A stretch of DNA of 64,000 bases. Origin: Escherichia coli phage vB_EcoS_Ace. Under the pieces are notes generated by a model that saw only the letters and a list, made by a program, of their open reading frames with translations, did no database searches and was not told the DNA's origin. The stretch lies in sequence record MT833283.1; one strand, written 5' to 3'. The first letter of the stretch is position 1. Each line of letters begins with the position of its first letter. The position numbers and the translations under genes were made by a program. Positions 1-49,362 of the stretch are shown here, piece after piece.

Positions 1-39
1 TGTTATCATTACACAGTGTGACTATTTTATTTTTAATTG

Positions 40-774
40 TTAGGCAACTTTTAATTTATCAATGAATTGTTGCGGAGTGGTACTATATTCCGCGCGTTCT
101 TCCTCGGTCATACCTTCCCAACACATTTTTAAACGTTCGGCTAGGAATTGATAATCGTTATCATCATCAAGCGATTCATCAATAAAGGTTTCACCGATCA
201 ATGTTACGCCGATTGATAGGATATCATTAACGGCTTGAGCGTCCAGCGTTTTAAATCCAGCACTTGCCGCCGCCGATAATACACCTTTATGATCATCAAT
301 CATTGTAAAATCAGCGTTAGGATATAGCTGTTTAAACAGTTCAAAGTAATAAGATTTATATACAGCGTCTTTGCTGTGATATATTTCGCTAACCTTATTT
401 GCATCAAAGTATTTATGTAATGTATCGCGGGAAAATACGCGAATATTACTATTTCCGCGCCCTCGCAAGCCTTGTTTGCGTAAATAAAAATAATCGCTTT
501 TAGACATTAAGCGCGCGGTACAAATTATATTTAATGTATTTGCATCATTCATACATTGGCGCATATATTCAACCAACGGCAATAAAGAATCTTGCATAAT
601 TAAATCATGTTTGCAGGCTTCGCGGGAATACTTAACTAAATCTAAATTCCCGTTATCATCAAAGCAAGGTGCTACACGATGGAAAGAATTTATAATCGTT
701 CCGTCTAAATCCCAAATCATAACGCGGGAAATATGCGGGAAAGCGCGGGTAATATTCATGTTGACTTGATTCAT
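40..774 (-). CDS. dmp: 5'-deoxyribonucleotidase, HAD family (T5 Dmp-like)
   Basis: 244-aa ORF; HAD motif I (IWDLDGTI); position and size match T5 pre-early dmp as recalled. Confidence 0.75.
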   Translation of the reverse strand: MNQVNMNITRAFPHISRVMIWDLDGTIINSFHRVAPCFDDNGNLDLVKYSREACKHDLIMQDSLLPLVEYMRQCMNDANTLNIICTARLMSKSDYFYLRKQGLRGRGNSNIRVFSRDTLHKYFDANKVSEIYHSKDAVYKSYYFELFKQLYPNADFTMIDDHKGVLSAAASAGFKTLDAQAVNDILSIGVTLIGETFIDESLDDDNDYQFLAERLKMCWEGMTEEERAEYSTTPQQFIDKLKVA

Positions 775-1621: not shown

Positions 1622-3286
1622 TTATGCAAAGAATTTACCGTTTTTGAAATCAATCAAAGTACGTTGCCCGTTTGCATAGGTAATTAAATGCGTTTGCGTC
1701 CAGCTTGACGCGCCCACGTTGTAGCCCATATCAAGGGAACCAGCAACGCCAGCGGTATAAACGCCGCCGTAAATGCTAGCCGTGTGAGTGTGACCAGTGT
1801 TAAGGCGTCCCAACTTTTTAAACTGCTTAGGATTGCCCCGACTGCCGTTAATGCCATTGTGACCATGTACGCCGCACTCAATGCCAGCGATTTTAAATGA
1901 CTGGTCAGTAGTCAGGAAAATGGCGTTAAATACACATCCTGCAACGTAGCGGAGGGCGTAATCCAATACGTTAAAGGTATCATTCTGTTTTGCAATTGCA
2001 GAGTAAATCGCAGCGTTTAAGCTGTGGTATAGTTCGGCGTTTGCGGGGTCGTCTTTAATGTTAGCGTTACGATCATCTAGCCAGCGTGAAAGAGCTAAAT
2101 CATGGTTAGATTCAACAATGATTGTTTGAGAGAAATCACGCTCCATTGATTCTAAAACGCGTCCAGTATCGATAAGATCATCTAAAACCTTGTCACGTCC
2201 TGCGGCGTACTGTTTAGCAAGGAATACACCACTTGCGCGGTTATGATGATTGCGGGATGTAAAATCGTGTACGTCATGGATAAACTGATATTTCGGTTTA
2301 AGAATATCAAGCAATGAATTTTCACTAGCCCATGACGCAATGGCGCATTCATCATCTAATTTTTCGGCGTGAATATCGCCATATTGCAGACCTAAAACAT
2401 GATCAGATGTTTCAAAACATCCGGTAGGCATAGCGCAAATATTCAAATCGTAGAACATCCCGCTTTCGTCCATTGTTTCAAGCTGGCGAACAAAAAATTC
2501 GCCGTCGTCGTCAAATTCTACTAATAAAGCGCCGTAATTATGCAGCGCCTCAGCTTTTTGACCTGCTTTCTGCTGAATATAGTTTTTAAGTGTAGCCGTT
2601 CCGGTGGAGTACATACGGCGTACTACTTCACCTTTTAACGCTGGCACACTTTCAGCGGTGATTTTAGCGTGACCAATTGCCAGACCTTCGATATTTAAAG
2701 CGGTGGCGGTTTCTGCGAATCCTGAAAGCGGATAATCAGCCGTTGGCAAAACGTTAATTTCAGCCATGAAAGCAAAGCGGCGGTTATTTAAAAATACGTT
2801 TTTATCACAAACATATTTATCAAATGCGGGATCGTATTTAATACCGTTTGCACCTTCCCCGTTCTGGAATCCATTTTTATTATAAATGAATTTACTGATT
2901 AGCAATTCAGCGCCGATATATTCAGCGAATTTTTCCAGACTTGCTAAAAAGTTTTTATGCGGGAAAGTATTATTTTGAACCGACGTTAGAATAAAACGGC
3001 GACCGGATTTAACTTCCCATTGTTCAACGGTACTAGAAACAATCCCCGCCGCTTCGGGGCGATCATCATTTTTAATCGCCTTTTCAGCTTTTGCCGCTTT
3101 CGGTTTCGCTGGCTTATTTGCTTCCAACCAGTCACAAATTGCGGTCGAATGTTTCGGCGTATCATAAACAGCTTTTGAAATATCGTCGCAAACTTCCAAT
3201 TTAGTAGCGCGTAAACGCTTACCGTAGAAGTTAAAATCTGCGGCCATTTTCAAAATTTGAGCTTGTTTTTCTGCGGAAATATTCAT
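1622..3286 (-). CDS. A1: A1-like pre-early protein with C-terminal calcineurin-like metallophosphoesterase (Mre11/SbcD-type nuclease) domain
   Basis: 554-aa ORF; motifs GDIHAE, VESNHD, GHNGINGSRGN, GHTHT in the order expected for metallophosphoesterases; size matches T5 A1 as recalled. Confidence 0.7.
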   Translation of the reverse strand: MNISAEKQAQILKMAADFNFYGKRLRATKLEVCDDISKAVYDTPKHSTAICDWLEANKPAKPKAAKAEKAIKNDDRPEAAGIVSSTVEQWEVKSGRRFILTSVQNNTFPHKNFLASLEKFAEYIGAELLISKFIYNKNGFQNGEGANGIKYDPAFDKYVCDKNVFLNNRRFAFMAEINVLPTADYPLSGFAETATALNIEGLAIGHAKITAESVPALKGEVVRRMYSTGTATLKNYIQQKAGQKAEALHNYGALLVEFDDDGEFFVRQLETMDESGMFYDLNICAMPTGCFETSDHVLGLQYGDIHAEKLDDECAIASWASENSLLDILKPKYQFIHDVHDFTSRNHHNRASGVFLAKQYAAGRDKVLDDLIDTGRVLESMERDFSQTIIVESNHDLALSRWLDDRNANIKDDPANAELYHSLNAAIYSAIAKQNDTFNVLDYALRYVAGCVFNAIFLTTDQSFKIAGIECGVHGHNGINGSRGNPKQFKKLGRLNTGHTHTASIYGGVYTAGVAGSLDMGYNVGASSWTQTHLITYANGQRTLIDFKNGKFFA

Positions 3287-3680: not shown

Positions 3681-4097
3681 TTATTCACCTGCGGCCTGTT
3701 TTACTTCCTCCGCTACGCCTAACAATTGCGCTACGGCTTCCAGCGTTTCCAGTTTTGCACTTTCCAGACTTGCCAGATCATCAGCGTCTTTGATAACGCC
3801 AGCATCAATGGCATGTTTAGCCATAACGCGCACATAGTGAGCTTTACGGACACTAGACCCGCCGCCAACTTTACGCGGTTTATCACTTTTCTGGTACGCT
3901 TTTGCGCTTGTCAGTTTAGAACGTACAGAAACAGGGCTTGCAGCGCCAACGGCGGCGGCAATTTCTTTCAGGCCGTCACTGTTAGCAAATTCAATTCCGC
4001 TTTTAGCGACCATTTCAGAATACATAGAAACAGCCTTTTCGGTGTTTTCTTCGTTCCAAGAGAATTTTGCGGTTTTTTCGGTTTTAACGTTAGACAT
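3681..4097 (-). CDS. A2: A2-like pre-early DNA-binding protein (138 aa)
   Basis: ORF size and position right of A1 match T5 A2 as recalled; Ala/Lys-rich; assignment by synteny only. Confidence 0.45.
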   Translation of the reverse strand: MSNVKTEKTAKFSWNEENTEKAVSMYSEMVAKSGIEFANSDGLKEIAAAVGAASPVSVRSKLTSAKAYQKSDKPRKVGGGSSVRKAHYVRVMAKHAIDAGVIKDADDLASLESAKLETLEAVAQLLGVAEEVKQAAGE

Positions 4098-5073: not shown

Positions 5074-5770
5074 CCTAATTTTTAAAGAGCATGGCAGGGT
5101 TTTGAAAGGTCAAACAGACTGTCAATCGCTGTTATCCCCGCCGTGTAGTTCGTCATTGCCGCCCTACGTGATAAATAATAGGAGAATACCGAGAAGGGCG
5201 CAAGCGTATTTTTGTAAAGAAACGTAAAGAAAACCACTACTCGCAAACTTCCAGCGGCGCATTAAATTTAATGAAACGGGCGCGCGAATAACACCAAAAC
5301 AACCATTTTAGCAAGTAATTTTTTCATTTATATCTGCTCTAGGGTACTTGACAAAATCTAAAATCCTCGTGGTGAGGTTTTCTCGGTGTACCCCTTATGA
5401 TTGCCTATCTTTTCCTTTGAGGCGCTTAGAATGCGTTACAGAGCGTTTTAGACCCTGTTAATAACTTATACAAAAAGCAAAAATGAAATTTAATGAGTTA
5501 TCCACTTGATTTTTCAAAAAAGTATTTTCTGCTGTTATTTTTCATTGACAAATAAGTCTGGACGTGCATCAGAGCATTAGCAGACTAATAATCGCTAGGA
5601 TGATAATCACGCTGGTGGATTGTAACAGCCGAAACAGTTAGTAGACTATTAATACTCTAAAAATCTATTAGCCAACTAACTATTTCATAATATATAATAT
5701 ACACATAAATTAATGAGAAATAATAACTATGAGAAACTATCGGGCTAAGTGAGAACCACTATCATTTAGG

Positions 5771-5840
5771 TTATGCACAAAGCTATCCACAGCACAAAAT
5801 AACTTGACGCAATAGGCGACGTTTTGGCGACTTATCCACA
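5771..5840. promoter_or_regulatory. cluster of DnaA-box-like 9-mers (TTATGCACA, CTATCCACA, TTATCCACA)
   Basis: three matches to TTATNCACA within 70 bp; further copies at 9460-9468 and 9521-9529. Confidence 0.5.
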
Positions 5841-5880
5841 GACTTATATACAGGTTATCCTACTGTATAAATATACAGGG
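5831..5880. repeat. left arm of ~50-bp inverted repeat carrying DnaA box TTATCCACA and LexA-box-like palindrome CTGT-N8-ACAG
   Basis: about 45/50 identity to reverse complement of 9421-9470. Confidence 0.7.
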
Positions 5881-8771: not shown

Positions 8772-9079
8772 CTAGAAATGAAGCTGTTAAAGCTATGTTA
8801 GAAGGTAAAAAAGTAACTCATCGTTATTTTTCCATGCATGAATATTTATTCATGAAATATGAAGTGATCACCACGGAGGATGGTTATAAATTTAATCATG
8901 AATTTTATAGCCGTGAAATGTTTAATGATGGCTGGTAGCTTTATTATGAATAGCTGGTGGCGAAAAACACAAAGCCATAAATCTAATAATACCGCTGGGA
9001 AACATTCCCAGCGTTTACGATTTGGTAATGGCTTCACAATGATATTGATAATCATTCTCATTCTAGGAGCAATGGCGTT

Positions 9080-9274
9080 ATGAGTGATAAAATTGTTGTA
9101 ACTAAAACTACTGTTACCGTTGATACTTTCTTTGTGCCTGATACGCTGGAAAATCGGCAAGCGGTGGAGCGTGGCGATTATGATAAAGTGATTTATGATA
9201 ACGATGGTTACTATCAACATTTGGTAGACTCCTACGGCGAAAGCGAAAAGATCACACATCGACTACCAGACTAA
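9080..9274 (+). CDS. hypothetical protein (64 aa)
   Basis: ORF in track; last gene of the plus-strand block, followed by terminator 9280-9308. Confidence 0.45.
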   Translation: MSDKIVVTKTTVTVDTFFVPDTLENRQAVERGDYDKVIYDNDGYYQHLVDSYGESEKITHRLPD

Positions 9275-9279
9275 TAATA

Positions 9280-9308
9280 ACGGGGCGCAACTATCGGCCC
9301 CGTCTTTT
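9280..9308 (+). terminator. rho-independent terminator closing the plus-strand block
   Basis: stem ACGGGGC/GCCCCGT followed by CTTTT. Confidence 0.6.
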
Positions 9309-9420
9309 CTGGCCTTCCTCAAATTTCCCCTTATTAAAATACCTCCCCCAAAAATAAACGCGTTCTAACGCGTTTGAGAGCGTTTTAGAGCTATATTAGA
9401 GTTATTCACTACGCAGGAAT

Positions 9421-9470
9421 ACTGTATAAATATACAGTAGAATAACCTGTTGATAAGTCTGTGGATAACG
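9421..9470. repeat. right arm of ~50-bp inverted repeat (TACTGTATAAATATACAGTA plus DnaA box TGTGGATAA)
   Basis: reverse complement matches 5831-5880. Confidence 0.7.
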
Positions 9471-9554
9471 CCTCAAAATCACTAGGATTTTGTCAAGTCA
9501 GATCGTGCTGTTAATAAACCTGTGGATAACTTAAATAACAGTGTTTCTCACTTC

Positions 9555-9700
9555 GCTTTGTAAATGCGAGTCATTCTCATTATCATTAGCGTTTCCCTTC
9601 CTAAATGCAAATCATTCTCATTCGTATTCCGGTAGTCAAATGATAACTGTTCTCATTCGCATTCAACTTCTCAAATGCGAATCATTCTCATTATCATTCG
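9555..9700. repeat. three direct copies of ~25-bp motif AAATGCRARTCATTCTCATT(ATCATT)
   Basis: copies near 9563, 9603 and 9672 plus a partial copy near 9640. Confidence 0.6.
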
Positions 9701-9735
9701 CATTTCGGCAGGCAGGGCAATTTGCCCTGCGCTTT

Positions 9736-10476
9736 TGTGCAAATCCGACATTTGCCCCCACGGATTACGTGCCAGTGTGCATGTGCGAATCCGACAATTT
9801 TTGGTAGTGTGCAAATCCGATGGGAAATATTTTTTATATGTGCGAATCCGACAATGAATTTTCCTAAAAACTCCAGCAATCCACAACTGCGATGCAATCC
9901 AGCTGGATTTACTAGAATATGTGCAAATACGACAAGTGTTAAGGTGTGCAAAACCGACAAGATTTTTGTGACTTCGATGAGAGGGTGTATGATTGTGTGA
10001 GTTTGGGGAGAAGTGCGAATCCGACGAGGTTTTTGGGAGGAACTATGGAGGGTGCAGCTGTGGTGGTGCTTCAGCACCGGTTTGCTGCGTTTTTGGGGAT
10101 AATGTGGGATGTTTTGGCTAGAATTGAGATTAGTGGAGATAAAGCGAAATTTTATTAGCAAAATGGGGCAAAATCGCTTGACAAGTGAAAATTCCTGTGG
10201 CTCTAAAAACTCAGGCAAATACGGGCCTTCGGCCCGAAATAATGCTGCTATTTTCAGTGTTCCTAAAAACTTTGGAGACTCCTATCAATGTGCAAATCCG
10301 ACCATAAATTTCTAGAAACATAGTGTGCAAATCCGACAGTAAAATCCAGAAATGTGTTTTGGAAAAATGTTGTCTAGAAATAACCGCCCTCCCCATAACC
10401 GCCCTGTATTAAACCGCCTATTGCTGGAGTTTCTAGGAACAGGAGAAACTGCCCTATAACATGGGCAAATACGACA
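9736..10476. repeat. iteron-like array, about 10 same-orientation copies of 15-bp motif TGTGCRAATCCGACA
   Basis: copies start near 9736, 9782, 9808, 9839, 9920, 9945, 10012, 10289, 10324, 10463; irregular spacing; interleaved TTCCTAAAAAC/TCTAGAAA motifs and three AACCGCC repeats at 10381-10420. Confidence 0.65.
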
Positions 10477-10813
10477 GGGTTTTCCTAGAAACTTAGGAGT
10501 CTACTAGAAAGTGTTGTGCCATCCTAGGAAGAGTGGCGGCAACAAGTGTATCATCTTGAATGTGAATTATGTGGTCAAAAGTTTTACCTTTAATTTAAGT
10601 ATAAGATCCCCAAGGATTGTGAGAGATGCTCCACCCCTGGGATACGAATTGCGTGAGATGGTACAAAACTTCTGAAGATTTCCCTAGCCCTCCGACGAGC
10701 TACGGGGGAAATAGAAGTTTCCCATCCACCATCCGTATCCGGGTGGATCTCTTTATTCTATGTTATTTCATAGAGTTATTATAACATGCAGAAATCATAA
10801 CGTCAAGTAGAGT

Positions 10814-11704
10814 TTATTCATCGAACATGAGGTTTCCTTTCATCCCCATCTCCGCATACTCCATGAGTTCTCCTAGGGATCTCACAGGGTAATCTACTTT
10901 ACTGAAGTTATCATAGATCTTACATGAACTCTCGTACAACTCGTTAGGTATCTGCAATTTGTTATCAGTTAGCTTCTCATAACGTGTAGAAGATTTTGTA
11001 CCTTCAAACAGAACTGCAATAACTGCGGCGATTTGTTTGGTAAGATCATCTGCTCCTAGAATTATTCTATTAATAGCAATCGTTACTTCATGCTTAGGTT
11101 TCACAGGTGGAAGGATAGGCTTGAGATCCTTAGGTAAAGGTTCTGTTCCTAGGAATCCTTCTTTTGTGCGGAACCAATAATTATCTAGATCAGATATTGT
11201 CTTAGACTTATTCCATATAGTGAAGCAAGGTTTATTTCCTTCACGATCTCTGTATTCACGAACTGGAAGATAATGATCAGGGAATGAGTTGAGTGCATCA
11301 TGCATTGGTGAGCCTGTCTTTTTAAATGACAAACCGTACAACTCATTATAATTCATAACTTCATCTTCATAAACATGGAAATCTTTATATGCTGGAAGAT
11401 TAAACCATTCCTGAAGTGAATGAACTGCAAAACGTTGTGCCCAAGCATGCATCACAAGAACTCTGTACTCTTTTACTTCATCTTTTGGAGAAGTACCTCT
11501 AACTGTTCTAGCTGACCGAATACAGAACATCTCAACAACACGTTTCTCGTTTAAAGAAAGCTCAGAGTAACAACGTTCATGGCAACCTTCTAGCATTTCT
11601 AGAAGTTCACATAGTTTCTCTACATCGACCGGTGGAAAAGGTCTCTCTTCCACCGCGAATTTACCAACTACACCTTTCGGCTTTCTATTACTATAAAATC
11701 CCAT
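10814..11704 (-). CDS. hypothetical protein (296 aa)
   Basis: ORF in track; stop/start overlap with next gene on same strand. Confidence 0.55.
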   Translation of the reverse strand: MGFYSNRKPKGVVGKFAVEERPFPPVDVEKLCELLEMLEGCHERCYSELSLNEKRVVEMFCIRSARTVRGTSPKDEVKEYRVLVMHAWAQRFAVHSLQEWFNLPAYKDFHVYEDEVMNYNELYGLSFKKTGSPMHDALNSFPDHYLPVREYRDREGNKPCFTIWNKSKTISDLDNYWFRTKEGFLGTEPLPKDLKPILPPVKPKHEVTIAINRIILGADDLTKQIAAVIAVLFEGTKSSTRYEKLTDNKLQIPNELYESSCKIYDNFSKVDYPVRSLGELMEYAEMGMKGNLMFDE

Positions 11705-12315
11705 TAACGACCTCTAGCCTTATCTGCATCAATAGCTTCGAATACTTTCGTTAACATTTCTTCAAGCTCACCTTCTTTGCTAGGATTGCTCAAACGAATT
11801 GTGTATGAGTTCCTAGAAACTCCGGAGTCTTCTTGTGCTCCGCGATCTTTTGCAAAGCCCATCATTGCAACGCCAGCTTTATTCCACTCGTCTACGCTAG
11901 ATGCTTCCCCAAATTTATATGATTGCGTATTGCTTACCACGCCACCACAAGGAACATTGTGCATATCCGACATTAATCTTTTATCGGAATTATTCAGCAT
12001 TGCGATTGGTCCTGACTGCCACGGATCCCGAATAGTCACTGGAGTACTAGGGCGATTCACCTCAGTCTTCACGAGTTTGTATCCAGCATCGATTAGTGCA
12101 TTAATTAGATTATCAGCCGGGATGCGAGCCGTGCCAAAGATAGCACGAGCATTCATGAGCTTAGCCTGAAATTCCTTGCAACCTTGAAGATCAGTGTGCA
12201 AAAACGACAGTTGCATAGATTTAAACTGTACTGTAGCAGTCAGATCTTTAAAGCTGTAATCCCATGTGTCGAGTTCATGATCTGCTACTACTTTAATGGT
12301 TTGTTGTGTAAACAT
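11704..12315 (-). CDS. hypothetical protein (203 aa)
   Basis: ORF in track. Confidence 0.55.
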   Translation of the reverse strand: MFTQQTIKVVADHELDTWDYSFKDLTATVQFKSMQLSFLHTDLQGCKEFQAKLMNARAIFGTARIPADNLINALIDAGYKLVKTEVNRPSTPVTIRDPWQSGPIAMLNNSDKRLMSDMHNVPCGGVVSNTQSYKFGEASSVDEWNKAGVAMMGFAKDRGAQEDSGVSRNSYTIRLSNPSKEGELEEMLTKVFEAIDADKARGR

Positions 12316-16239: not shown

Positions 16240-16830
16240 TCAAACATTCGTTTCACCTCGCAGTACAGCAGCCACATCTTCCCCTATTTGTAGAACTTCT
16301 CCAGTAGTGGCGTTAACCACTTTGTCATAGCTTGTAAACTTGCCAGACACGATATCTTCTAAGGGAATCGGTGTCTTACTCATTTCAAATGAGACGTTGA
16401 TATAACGTGGGTCACGCACAGAATTGGTGTGCACATGTCCATGAATGTTCAGCTTACCACGAAGTTCCTCTGGGTGTAAAGGACAATGTGACAGCCAAAA
16501 CTTCTTGCCACCACCTGTTTGCTTACCTAGAGCCTGAATATCATCATAAACGTCTATAAGATCTTTAATATGCAGACCCTGACGTTCAGCATCGTGGTTG
16601 CCCATAATAAGCTGGTTAGGAACGTTGTGGATAACCGACTTCAACTTGGCCAACCCTTCTCGCCCCACGGCACTATCTCCTAGCAGCACAAGTTTTGTAC
16701 GCTTGCCAATGTGCTTGGACAAAGTATCCAGAATATATTCGTCATGCTCTTTCATGTTCTTAAACCACGGACGGAAGCGAAGAGTTCCAGGGTGGTCTAA
16801 GTGCAACTCCGACCAGAATTTAACTTTCAT
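16240..16830 (-). CDS. calcineurin-like metallophosphoesterase (196 aa)
   Basis: motifs LGDSAVG, MGNHDAE, HGHVH. Confidence 0.65.
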   Translation of the reverse strand: MKVKFWSELHLDHPGTLRFRPWFKNMKEHDEYILDTLSKHIGKRTKLVLLGDSAVGREGLAKLKSVIHNVPNQLIMGNHDAERQGLHIKDLIDVYDDIQALGKQTGGGKKFWLSHCPLHPEELRGKLNIHGHVHTNSVRDPRYINVSFEMSKTPIPLEDIVSGKFTSYDKVVNATTGEVLQIGEDVAAVLRGETNV

Positions 16831-48873: not shown

Positions 48874-49362
48874 TTACATCTCAGCAAGTTCTTGCTCAGT
48901 AATTACAGTATTGCATAGAGCATCAACTTCTTCATTACCACGAATACCTGAGTGACCTTTAACCTTAACAAAGGTTGGATTGGTATCATGGAAGTTAATA
49001 TACTGTTGAGTTAGTTTAAATGCTTCTTGCCAGAGTTCTAGATTAAGAGGAGTTTCACCATCTCCCTTCTTCCAGCCTTTCTTCTGCCAAGACCACATCC
49101 AGCTTTCCATACCATTTTTGCAGTAAGCAGAATCAGTGTAGATAATTACTGGACGATTATCTTTCTTAGTAGACCAACGAAGAACTTCTACAATTGCAGT
49201 AAGTTCCATTTCGTTATTAGTAGTTTTAGGGCTGAAGCCAGATTTAGAGCCAATACGATCATCATTATCATTATAGACAACGAATCCCCACGCACCTAAA
49301 CCAGGATTGCCTTTACATGCACCATCTGTATATATGTGGAAAACCGACATTATTTGCTCCAA
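48874..49362 (-). CDS. rnh: ribonuclease H (RnhA-like)
   Basis: YTDGACKGNPG, ELTA, DS.Y, HSG..GNE.D motifs. Confidence 0.75.
   Translation of the reverse strand: MEQIMSVFHIYTDGACKGNPGLGAWGFVVYNDNDDRIGSKSGFSPKTTNNEMELTAIVEVLRWSTKKDNRPVIIYTDSAYCKNGMESWMWSWQKKGWKKGDGETPLNLELWQEAFKLTQQYINFHDTNPTFVKVKGHSGIRGNEEVDALCNTVITEQELAEM

What the first reader, a model, noticed from the sequence alone, without database searches (positions are those of the whole stretch)
9540..10520. About 1 kb non-coding array of several direct-repeat families next to DnaA boxes
About ten same-orientation copies of TGTGCRAATCCGACA, three copies of a 25-bp AAATGCRARTCATTCTCATT motif, repeated TTCCTAAAAAC/TCTAGAAA units and three AACCGCC repeats lie in a region with no convincing ORF, directly after two DnaA boxes (9460-9468, 9521-9529). 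Iterons plus DnaA boxes are typical of replication origins or protein-loading sites. In T5-type phages this position (about 8-9% from the left end) is also where the first-step-transfer stop and the terminal-repeat boundary are expected from established knowledge.
Basis: partly seen in the sequence, partly recalled or inferred. Interest (0 to 1): 0.6.

Follow-up and report, generated by a model that had tools for sequence, protein, structure and literature searches.

The report
T5-type injection-stop / terminal-repeat junction region
This is the well-described non-coding repeat region at the inner end of the left terminal repeat of a T5-like phage, where DNA injection pauses and the terminal repeat ends; the repeats are real and conserved, but already catalogued, and their mechanism is still unsolved.

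Summary
Window 9540-10520 holds ten same-strand copies of TGTGCRAATCCGACA (13 window-wide at <=2 mismatches against 0.08 expected), the AAATGCRARTCATTCTCATT palindromes, a YCTARAAACTY family, three AACCGCC units and two consensus DnaA boxes, with no conserved ORF. The window is the left end of a T5-like phage (dmp and A1 present). The region is collinear, element by element, with T5 'Repeat Region 3'. T5's GenBank record AY587007 already annotates these families: direct repeat D, direct repeat C, IRD'/IRC' with DnaA boxes, nick 1 and the LTR end. [quoted passage not shown] Annotated LTR ends of T5, Sw2, SIY1lw and Spc35 all project to window 10203|10204, inside the array. The replication-origin reading is not supported; the FST-stop and terminal-repeat-boundary reading is. 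I add four points. The LTR end lies inside one YC|TARAAACTY unit, beside the best-conserved block. D repeats flank that end in every lineage examined. DnaA boxes keep their sequence in a Vibrio relative while the other two families change there. The C palindrome is Fur-box-like, but probably not a Fur site. Verdict: already known, mechanism open, modest interest.

The parts
5744..5878 (+). IRC-spacer-IRD, the distal inverted partner ('Repeat Region 2') of the DnaA-box module. It carries four DnaA or DnaA-like boxes at 5771, 5783, 5832 and 5844.
   Evidence: A 135-nt inverted repeat, 75% complementary to 9422-9556. Boxes located. T5 features 'inverted repeat C/D'.
9279..9303 (+). palC, a rho-independent terminator that closes the last pre-early operon.
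   Evidence: Projection of the T5 annotation. The hairpin plus T-run is visible.
9420..9556 (-). palD plus IRD'-spacer-IRC'. Two pairs of DnaA boxes (9448/9460 and 9509/9521) are separated by 3 bp within each pair, and the pairs lie 61 bp apart.
   Evidence: Panel identity is 0.86-0.97. The same module occurs in Pectobacterium phage My1 and Vibrio phage VCPH.
9558..9699 (+). These are imperfect palindromes of the type AAATGAGAAT-C-ATTCTCATT. The T5 shear point projects to about 9680.
   Evidence: Folded as single-stranded DNA the block gives z = -4.9.
9712..9732 (+). palJ hairpin, overlapping the homologue of T5 'major single-stranded nick 1, 7.9%' (CCCTGCGC, 9725-9732).
   Evidence: Scored as terminator-like. 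Seabear's PhageTerm 'repeat end' projects exactly to 9732.
9736..10026 (+). Direct repeat D copies 1-7 (TGTGC-R-AATCCGA-Y), inside the LTR. The copy at 10012 is degenerate in T5.
   Evidence: The 46/26/31/81/25 spacing is identical in T5 and five other enteric relatives (Kenya-K18, pork29, AKFV33, Sw2, Seabear).
10090..10128 (+). G/T-rich direct repeat A copies 2 and 3 (TTTTGGGGA type).
   Evidence: Projection of the T5 annotation. Analogous TTGGGGA runs occur in VCPH.
10140..10203 (+). The most conserved block (GGGGCAAAA..TTGACAAGTGAAAA..CTGTGGCTC), ending at the predicted right end of the LTR (10203|10204). This corresponds to the physical right end of the virion DNA.
   Evidence: Panel identity is 0.93-0.98. 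LTR ends of T5, Sw2 (PhageTerm), SIY1lw and Spc35 project here. The My1 end falls within about 3 nt of the homologous point.
10202..10212 (+). The YC|TARAAACTY unit that contains the LTR end. Other units of this family lie at 9863, 10262, 10427(-) and 10484.
   Evidence: 8 copies in the window against 0.53 expected.
10222..10236 (+). Conserved hairpin CGGGCCTTCGGCCCG, just outside the LTR.
   Evidence: for the sequence. Invariant in alignment A1. Panel identity 0.92.
10289..10476 (+). Direct repeat D copies 8-10 (T5 copies 7-9). They lie in unique DNA to the right of the LTR end.
10381..10419 (+). Three AACCGCC units spaced 15 bp apart.
   Evidence: Conserved in T5 and My1.
11958..11972 (+). 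Outlying D-repeat copy inside the second early gene (T5 'direct repeat D copy 10'). A further copy lies at 12195.

Best explanation
The flagged array is the T5-family 'Repeat Region 3'. It is a roughly 1.5-kb untranslated, cis-acting stretch between the last pre-early gene and the first early gene, and it spans the junction between the left terminal repeat and unique DNA.

It is modular. From left to right it holds:
- a terminator;
- palD and two pairs of DnaA boxes, which have an inverted partner 3.5 kb upstream;
- four palindromic C repeats;
- a hairpin that carries the 7.9% nick site;
- seven same-strand D repeats;
- G/T-rich A repeats;
- a very conserved block that ends at the terminal-repeat end (10203);
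- a further hairpin;
- three more D repeats;
- AACCGCC units.

How it most likely works:
- Left module (about 9420-9730). This is the injection-stop signal. After about 8% of the genome has entered, transfer halts here until the pre-early proteins A1 and A2 are made. Host DnaA bound at the box pairs is the leading candidate for the anchor.
- Right module (9736-10480). The D iterons are binding sites for a protein that reads at least 13 bp. That protein most likely acts on the DNA end that forms at 10203, or on the restart of transfer.

Shown here: identity with the T5 region, the order of elements, their conservation, the position of the repeat end, and the absence of coding.

Inferred: which proteins bind, and every mechanistic step.

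The confidence figure refers to the identification and to the general role as cis-acting sites for DNA transfer and end formation. For individual steps my estimates are: iss lies in the left module, about 0.6; DnaA is the anchor, about 0.3; the D repeats bind a phage-encoded protein and not a host protein, about 0.6.
For: Taxonomic placement:
- 518-541 T5-like phage records match this stretch.
- dmp and A1 are present at the left end of the window.

Identity with T5 Repeat Region 3:
- The region is collinear with T5 9179-10870, and every annotated T5 feature maps onto a window counterpart.
- The full set of eight DnaA boxes, in pairs 3 bp apart, is present as Davison 2020 describes.

Conservation:
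- The D array has 8-12 copies, all on one strand, in 11 relatives including Klebsiella phages.
- Both halves of the 15-mer are nearly invariant across 114 copies.
- D1-D6 spacing is identical in window, T5 and five other enteric relatives (Kenya-K18, pork29, AKFV33, Sw2, Seabear).
- Pectobacterium phage My1 and Vibrio phage VCPH keep the same order of modules.

Terminal-repeat end:
- Four annotated LTR ends project to 10203, and the My1 end falls within about 3 nt of the homologous point.

Literature that identifies the region as the iss: Davison 2020 (10.1101/866236); the BF23 paper PMC10644984; PMC13250531, which cites Heusterspreute 1987, Gene 52:155; and the 2026 T5 preprint.
Against: - No experiment has shown that any of these repeats binds a protein or stops DNA transfer. 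[quoted passage not shown]
- The T5 stop point comes from blender shearing and 1970s length measurements, so it is known only to within a few hundred bp.
- The right end of this genome is not in the window, so the boundary at 10203 rests on homology.
- Other public records place the LTR end elsewhere: their annotations project to 9732, about 9994, 10102 and 10150.
- In the enteric panel the D columns are only modestly better conserved than the spacers (0.85 against 0.81).
Confidence: 0.9

Rival explanations
1. The D-repeat array, together with the conserved block at 10140-10203, is the recognition site for terminase or for whatever machinery forms the terminal repeat. It would resemble a pac or cos site, and would not be part of the injection stop. 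In the replicating concatemer the cut that creates the virion's right end falls at 10203|10204. The left end is injected first, so it should be packaged last, which means packaging should start at this cut. The D iterons on both sides would then load the small terminase subunit. This rival is compatible with the left module still being the iss.
For: - The annotated repeat end lies in the middle of the D array: 7 copies to the left and 3 to the right in the window, 6 and 3 in My1.
- The 60 bp before the cut are the most conserved stretch of the whole region (0.93-0.98). Part of this block is recognisable in another subfamily.
- The cut lies inside a repeated YC|TARAAACTY unit.
- D copies 8-10 lie outside the terminal repeat, well to the right of the stop point, so they are hard to explain as part of a stop signal.
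- Davison 2020 assigns no role to the D repeats.
Against: - No terminase-binding data exist.
- The direction of packaging is inferred only from the general rule that the last DNA packaged is the first ejected.
- The other repeat boundary in T5 (111613|111614) shares no motif with this one.
- D copies also occur 1.7-2 kb away inside an early gene.
- Public annotations of the repeat end disagree by up to 470 bp.
Confidence: 0.3
2. The D repeats are loading sites for the pre-early A1/A2 proteins (A2 is a DNA-binding dimer). These proteins would restart transfer, either by pulling or ratcheting the DNA as successive sites emerge, or by cutting to the right of the block as Davison proposes.
For: - The array begins immediately to the right of the projected stop point and nick.
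- All copies face the same way, which suits a directional process.
- A1 and A2 are required for second-step transfer, and A2 binds DNA (Davison 2020).
- The motif changes in the Vibrio relative, as expected if a phage-encoded binder co-evolves with it.
Against: - No sequence-specific binding by A2 has been reported.
- This reading does not explain the copies beyond the repeat end, the copy inside an early gene, or the strong conservation at the cut site.
Confidence: 0.25
3. The region is a replication origin: a DnaA-box cluster plus iterons at which an initiator assembles.
For: - Two consensus and two near-consensus DnaA boxes lie in ordered pairs.
- Ten same-orientation iterons follow.
- The 5' 9-mer of the D repeat is itself a DnaA box with one mismatch, in the same orientation as the consensus boxes. 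The chance of that for a random 15-mer is about 0.017.
Against: - Transcription converges on the region, and cumulative GC skew has a local maximum here, not a minimum.
- G+C is 0.40-0.42, no lower than the window average, so there is no AT-rich unwinding element.
- The flanking genes match no initiator family.
- T5 origins were mapped near the centre of the genome, and the replication genes are not yet in the cell when this DNA enters (Davison 2020).
- The 3' half of the D repeat is as conserved as the DnaA-like half.
Confidence: 0.05
4. The C palindromes are Fur boxes, which would tie the region to host iron regulation. T5 uses the ferrichrome receptor FhuA.
For: - C units match the 19-bp Fur consensus at 13-16 positions.
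- T5 copy 3 contains TGAGAATCATTATCA, 14 of 15 against the 7-1-7 consensus TGATAATnATTATCA.
- A C-like site at window 9041 matches 17 of 19.
- Davison 2020 never mentions Fur.
- A sub-threshold Rfam hit to the Fur-regulated sRNA PrrF overlaps the block.
Against: - The family consensus differs from the Fur motif symmetrically, at position 4 of each half-site (G in place of T). From memory, that position is invariant in Fur-family boxes.
- All copies are one repeat family, so the resemblance counts as a single observation in AT-rich DNA.
- In Vibrio phage VCPH the module is replaced by GTTGCGGTRGCAACT units that are not Fur-like, although (from general knowledge) vibrios have Fur with the same box.
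- The PrrF hit scores 27 bits against a gathering score of 90.
Confidence: 0.07
5. The region hides small protein genes or an sRNA. Several public records annotate 'hypothetical proteins' inside it.
For: - Some relatives carry annotated ORFs here, for example Sw2, Seabear, pork29 and KPP2018.
- The window has a 174-aa open frame.
- Weak promoter-like hexamers lie inside the C units, and palJ looks like a terminator.
Against: - Segment lengths differ modulo 3 between relatives, and all frames carry stops in most of them.
- The annotated ORFs differ from record to record.
- There is no Pfam or PHROG match.
- No Rfam family reaches threshold.
- The number of C units varies between close relatives.
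Confidence: 0.04

Closest known systems
Phage T5 'Repeat Region 3' / injection-stop signal (iss) region (Heusterspreute et al. 1987, Gene 52:155; features of GenBank AY587007.1; Davison 2020, bioRxiv 10.1101/866236)
   Same: [quoted passage not shown]
- It has the same elements in the same order: palC, palD, IRD'-spacer-IRC' with paired DnaA boxes, direct repeats C, palJ with the nick site, direct repeats D, direct repeats A, the LTR end, and further D repeats.
- It has the same distal inverted partner.
- Spacing of D1-D6 is identical.
   Different: - The window has one extra D copy (10012) that is degenerate in T5.
- The C units differ in sequence detail and layout: T5 carries about 30 bp more DNA between C1 and C2.
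- The window lacks a 34-bp T5 insertion after the last D copy.
- The two share about 80% identity.

These are differences between species of one family, not differences in kind.
Terminase recognition regions with repeated binding sites around the cut (lambda cosB R sites, SPP1 pacL/pacR, T7 repeat arrays next to its terminal repeat). Recalled from established knowledge, not tested here.
   Same: Short repeated sites lie on both sides of the point where the virion DNA end is made, next to a strongly conserved block.
   Different: - No terminase binding is known for T5.
- The array is much longer (about 750 bp).
- All sites point the same way.
- The region also contains the transfer stop, which those systems lack.
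oriC-type and iteron-type replication origins
   Same: Ordered DnaA boxes, and direct repeats in a single orientation.
   Different: - There is no AT-rich unwinding element.
- No initiator gene lies adjacent.
- Transcription converges on the site, and the GC skew is terminus-like.
- T5 origins were mapped elsewhere.

Membership tests
T5-type Repeat Region 3 / iss region | Lies at the right end of the left terminal repeat of a phage that has dmp, A1 and A2 at the left end. | tested here: met
   dmp lies at 40-774 (-), aligned to T5 dmp. A1 lies at 1622-3286 (-), 99% identical to an annotated A1 protein. A 138-aa ORF at 3681-4097 (-) is the presumed A2, but I did not check it separately.
T5-type Repeat Region 3 / iss region | IRD'-spacer-IRC' of about 131 bp, with DnaA or DnaA-like boxes in pairs 3 bp apart. 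| tested here: met
   The module spans 9422-9552. Boxes lie at 9448/9460 and 9509/9521. The spacer is the same length as in T5 by the annotated coordinates.
T5-type Repeat Region 3 / iss region | An inverted partner (IRC-spacer-IRD) a few kb upstream, with four more boxes. | tested here: met
   5744-5878 is 75% complementary to 9422-9556. Boxes lie at 5771, 5783, 5832 and 5844.
T5-type Repeat Region 3 / iss region | Direct repeats C (DRE/DRC), followed by about nine same-strand direct repeats D. | tested here: met
T5-type Repeat Region 3 / iss region | The terminal repeat ends inside the region, which overruns into unique DNA by about 270 bp. | tested here: inconclusive
   The right end of this genome is not in the window. 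By homology the end is at 10203, with D copies up to 10476, an overrun of 273 bp. Other records' annotations project to 9732-10150.
T5-type Repeat Region 3 / iss region | DNA transfer pauses here until A1 and A2 are made. | not testable with these tools
   This needs a blender-shear or sequencing assay on infected cells.
Replication origin (DnaA-dependent or iteron type) | A cluster of DnaA boxes. | tested here: met
Replication origin (DnaA-dependent or iteron type) | An adjacent AT-rich unwinding element. | tested here: not met
   G+C is 0.40-0.42 in 9-11 kb, against 0.36-0.42 elsewhere in the first 24 kb.
Replication origin (DnaA-dependent or iteron type) | A cumulative GC-skew minimum, or genes diverging from the site. 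| tested here: not met
   There is a local skew maximum at 10-11 kb, and the gene blocks converge.
Replication origin (DnaA-dependent or iteron type) | A cognate initiator gene next to the iterons. | tested here: inconclusive
   The flanking proteins match only PHROGs and a DUF of unknown function.
pac/cos-type terminase recognition site | Contains the site where the virion DNA end is cut. | tested here: inconclusive
   Met only by homology to the annotated ends of T5, Sw2 (PhageTerm), SIY1lw, Spc35 and My1.
pac/cos-type terminase recognition site | Repeated protein-binding sites next to the cut. | tested here: met
   D repeats lie on both sides of the cut, and YCTARAAACTY units include the cut itself. 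That these are binding sites is inferred.
pac/cos-type terminase recognition site | Bound by the small terminase subunit. | not testable with these tools
   This needs biochemistry.
Fur box | A close match to GATAATGATAATCATTATC / TGATAATnATTATCA. | tested here: inconclusive
   The match is 13-16 of 19 in the C units and 17 of 19 at 9041. The family consensus departs symmetrically from the Fur motif at position 4 of each half-site.
Fur box | Retained in relatives whose hosts have the same Fur box. | tested here: not met
   Vibrio phage VCPH has an unrelated 15-bp palindrome array at this position. Only one distant genome was examined.

The most novel reading that the evidence does not exclude
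The region combines two functions that have been lumped together as 'the iss'.

- A host-factor module. The DnaA-box pairs keep their sequence even in a Vibrio phage.
- A phage-specific module. The D iterons, the YC|TARAAACTY units and the conserved block at 10140-10203 would direct formation of the long terminal repeat's end and initiation of packaging, a pac-like site for the T5 family.

If correct, this would identify the long-unknown cis site for generating the ends of T5-type genomes. It would also narrow the true stop signal to about 300 bp (9420-9730).
Probability: 0.25. Interest if true: 0.55.

Novelty: already known. Interest (0 to 1): 0.25.

Why it matters
Why T5 pauses after injecting 8% of its DNA, and how it resumes, has been an open question since the 1960s. 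This region is the accepted location of the cis signal.

The finding itself adds nothing to what is already annotated in T5's GenBank record and compared across 25 relatives by Davison. The comparative results obtained here do sharpen what to test:
- which module is conserved across hosts (the DnaA boxes);
- which modules change with the phage lineage (the C and D repeats);
- the fact that the terminal-repeat end sits inside the array, next to its most conserved block.

There is also a practical consequence. Many public T5-like records annotate spurious small ORFs here, and they place the repeat end inconsistently.

Tried and rejected
- Coding. I tested every open frame of at least 60 codons across 12 genomes. 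None is conserved, and the 174-aa frame has no family match.
- Structured RNA. Rfam at a permissive threshold gave only PrrF (27 bits against a gathering score of 90) and a snoRNA hit. I rejected both as chance.
- Promoters. Only weak 9-of-12 matches lie inside the array.
- Fur boxes. The resemblance is real, but it is weakened by the symmetric departure at position 4 of each half-site and by the replacement of the module in the Vibrio relative.
- D repeat as a DnaA site. The 5' 9-mer is one mismatch from the box, with a chance probability of about 0.017. The 3' half is equally conserved, so DnaA alone does not explain the motif.
- The D-like site at 49335, with a nearby Fur-like site at 49257. 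It lies in the first codons of a gene, so it is chance.
- A motif shared by the two repeat boundaries in T5. None was found.
- The D signature outside the family. An IMG/VR scan found it only in contigs of about 100-123 kb, or in fragments.
- T5 tail length. I looked for a citable figure, to test whether the DNA to the right of the stop would sit in the tail tube during the pause. I found none and dropped the idea.
- Davison 2015 could not be retrieved.
Full report
**What is there**

I read window 9000-11200 and confirmed each repeat family.

- The 15-mer TGTGCRAATCCGACA occurs ten times on the + strand between 9736 and 10476. Window-wide there are 13 matches at two or fewer mismatches, against 0.08 expected from shuffles.
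- The motif AAATGCRARTCATTCTCATT has three exact copies (9562, 9603, 9673), a degenerate copy near 9638, and a further relative at 9043.
It has eight copies against 0.53 expected, and five of them lie in 9863-10494.
- Three AACCGCC units lie 15 bp apart.
- Two consensus DnaA boxes lie at 9460 and 9521 on the - strand. Each has a one-mismatch partner box 3 bp away.
- The non-coding stretch is larger than flagged. It runs from about 9275 to 10813, between a + strand gene block that ends at 9274 and a - strand block that ends at 10814.

**Which genome**

- The stretch matches 518-541 records of T5-like phages (Demerecviridae). The best match is Salmonella phage STK8t at 97.5%.
- The window starts at or near the physical left end. 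It begins TGT like T5, and window 32-492 aligns with T5 116-576, which holds dmp.
- A1 lies at 1622-3286 on the - strand.

**It is T5 'Repeat Region 3'**

T5's GenBank record AY587007.1 annotates the following between 9194 and 10409:
- palindromes C to J;
- inverted repeats D' and C';
- direct repeats B, C (four copies), D (nine copies) and A;
- 'major single-stranded nick 1, 7.9%';
- the end of the left terminal repeat at 10139.

A four-genome alignment is collinear throughout, and every T5 feature projects onto a window counterpart:

| T5 feature | Window coordinates |
|---|---|
| IRD' | 9422-9462 |
| IRC' | 9514-9552 |
| C repeats | 9558-9699 |
| palJ | 9712-9730 |
| nick site CCCTGCGC | 9725-9732 |
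| D1-D6 | 9736-9959 |
| A repeats | 10090-10128 |
| D7-D9 | 10289-10474 |

The inverted partner of the DnaA-box module lies at 5744-5878. The window therefore has the complete set of eight boxes that Davison describes.

**Terminal-repeat end**

- The annotated LTR ends of T5, Sw2 (determined with PhageTerm), SIY1lw and Spc35 all project to the same junction, CTGTGGCTC|TAAAAACTC, at window 10203|10204.
- Other records disagree. Seabear's PhageTerm boundary projects to 9732, which is exactly the nick site and is probably an artefact of the nick. pork29 and cott162 project to about 9994, Kenya-K18 to 10102, and the end of the 100268_sal2 record to 10150.
- In Pectobacterium phage My1, which belongs to a different subfamily, the annotated end lies within about 3 nt of the homologous point. 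It follows the conserved block GGGGCAAAA..TTGACAARTGAAAA.
- The right end of this genome is not in the window, so 10203 remains a prediction from homology.

**Conservation and anatomy**

- The D array has 8-12 copies, all on one strand, in each of 11 relatives. This holds even in Klebsiella phages, where only about a third of the region aligns by BLAST.
- Across 114 copies the motif is TGTGC-R-AATCCGA-Y, with both halves nearly invariant.
- The D1-D6 spacing (46, 26, 31, 81, 25) is identical in the window, T5, Kenya-K18, pork29, AKFV33, Sw2 and Seabear.
- In the enteric panel the whole region is conserved, so D columns exceed the spacers only modestly (0.85 against 0.81). In the Klebsiella pair the contrast is larger (0.58 against 0.39).
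- The best-conserved stretch is 10140-10260, around the repeat end (0.92-0.98). Next come the DnaA-box module and the D copies.
- The repeat end falls inside one YC|TARAAACTY unit.
- No open frame is conserved.
- No RNA family reaches threshold.
- The C/palJ block is strongly self-complementary when folded as single-stranded DNA (z = -4.9).

**Distant relatives**

- My1 keeps the same order and nearly the same motifs: DnaA-box pairs 61 bp apart, then C units, then six D copies to the left and three to the right of its repeat end, with AACCGCC units also present.
- Vibrio phage VCPH keeps palD and the two DnaA-box pairs (62 bp apart) almost unchanged. After them comes an array of about ten tandem 15-bp palindromic units (GTTGCGGTRGCAACT) where the C repeats would be. 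Diverged D-like units (AGTGCGAAATCTA, AGTGCGAAACCGAC) follow, and then TTGGGGA runs like the A repeats.
- So the host-factor sites (DnaA boxes) are stable, while the other two families change with the lineage. That pattern fits binders that co-evolve with the phage. Only one genome at that distance was read.

**Mechanism**

What is established in the literature is positional.
- The leftmost 7.9% of T5 DNA enters first.
- The shear point is about 9618, which projects to about window 9680.
- A1 and A2 are needed for the rest of the DNA to enter.

No binding or deletion experiment exists for these repeats (Davison 2020; BF23 paper; 2026 papers). Davison proposes that membrane-bound DnaA anchors the box pairs, and that A1/A2 cut to the right of the block. 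He assigns no role to the D repeats.

My best reading is modular.
- The left part (9420-9730) is the stop signal.
- The right part (the D iterons, the YC|TARAAACTY units and the conserved junction block) acts on the DNA end made at 10203, or on the restart of transfer.

The packaging version rests on three observations and one inference. The observations are that the cut lies inside the array, that D copies lie on both sides of it in two subfamilies, and that the junction block is the most conserved part. The inference is that, because the left end is injected first, packaging should begin at this cut. All of this is inference, and the restart version (A1/A2 loading) is about equally likely.

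**Origin hypothesis**

- Evidence for it: the DnaA-box pairs and the iterons. In addition, the 5' 9-mer of the D repeat is one mismatch from a DnaA box, in the same orientation as the consensus boxes (chance about 0.017).
- Evidence against it:
  - transcription converges on the region;
  - cumulative GC skew has a local maximum here, and there is no AT-rich element;
  - the neighbouring genes are not recognisable initiators;
  - the 3' half of the D repeat is equally conserved;
  - T5 origins map near the genome centre, and the replication genes arrive only with the second step.

I rate this reading at 0.05.

**Side leads**

- The C palindrome resembles a Fur box. The match is 13-16 of 19 in the C units, 14 of 15 to the 7-1-7 form in T5 copy 3, and 17 of 19 at window 9041, just upstream of ORF 9080-9274. 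The Davison preprint never mentions Fur. The family consensus departs from the Fur motif symmetrically, and the module is replaced in the Vibrio relative, so I rate this at 0.07.
- The D-like site at 49335 is coding and is a chance match.
- The D-like copy at 11958 is already annotated in T5 as copy 10.
- The two-copy D signature occurs in IMG/VR only in T5-sized contigs or fragments of them.

**Verdict**

The feature has been known since 1987 and is annotated in the T5 reference record. Interest is modest (0.25). The mechanism is a genuine, long-standing open question, but the finding as reported does not go beyond what is published. The most novel reading my evidence leaves open is that the D-repeat half is the family's end-formation and packaging site (probability about 0.25).

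Noticed in passing
window 9041-9065: GATATTGATAATCATTCTC matches the 19-bp Fur consensus at 17 of 19 positions and shares the ATCATTCTCATT core of the C repeats. It lies just upstream of the ribosome-binding site of the last pre-early ORF (9080-9274). It could be an operator for that gene.
   Followed up: partly
window 9725-9732, and locus L005 (Seabear) position 1539: Seabear's PhageTerm 'repeat region' ends exactly at the homologue of the T5 7.9% nick site (CCCTGCGC|TTTT). The nick probably mimics a DNA end in the read-start statistics. Public LTR-end annotations for T5-like phages project to five different window positions between 9732 and 10203.
   Followed up: partly
window 11958-11972 and 12195-12209: Two further D-repeat copies lie on the + strand, 237 bp apart, inside the - strand early gene 11704-12315. 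They are conserved in Sw2 and SIY1lw. T5 annotates the first as 'direct repeat D copy 10'. Their role is unknown. A YCTARAAACTY unit also lies at 11812.
   Followed up: partly
window 9594-9739 (+): A sub-threshold Rfam hit to PrrF, a Fur-regulated sRNA (26.9 bits, gathering score 90, E = 0.056). It starts just after a weak promoter-like site (9558-9586) and ends at the palJ hairpin plus T-run. It is probably chance, and the number of C units varies between close relatives.
   Followed up: partly
locus L012 2652-2800 (Vibrio phage VCPH, AP014889.1): About ten head-to-tail 15-bp palindromic units (GTTGCGGTRGCAACT) occupy the place of the C repeats, directly after conserved DnaA-box pairs. The repeat region runs across the end and the start of the record, which suggests that the record is split inside this region.
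   Followed up: partly
window 9694-10218 (-), and loci L006 and L010: A 174-aa open frame, annotated as a 'hypothetical protein' of about 177 aa in pork29 and KPP2018, spans the D repeats. It is not conserved in frame, so it is probably a product of G/T-rich strand composition. Several records also annotate differing small ORFs in this region.
   Followed up: yes
one search hit list (MG065642.1 and the Listeria-labelled records): Records labelled 'Campylobacter phage A148' and several 'Listeria' phages carry this enteric T5-like region at up to 94% identity. Their host labels look doubtful.
   Followed up: no
window 10179-10212: A perfect TTGACA hexamer lies 19 bp before the predicted repeat end. 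It is conserved in T5, My1 and the whole panel. No matching -10 hexamer was scored, so it may be part of the cut-site recognition block and not a promoter.
   Followed up: partly
window 16626-16634 (-): A fourth consensus DnaA box (TTATCCACA) lies outside the two repeat modules. I did not examine it.
   Followed up: no
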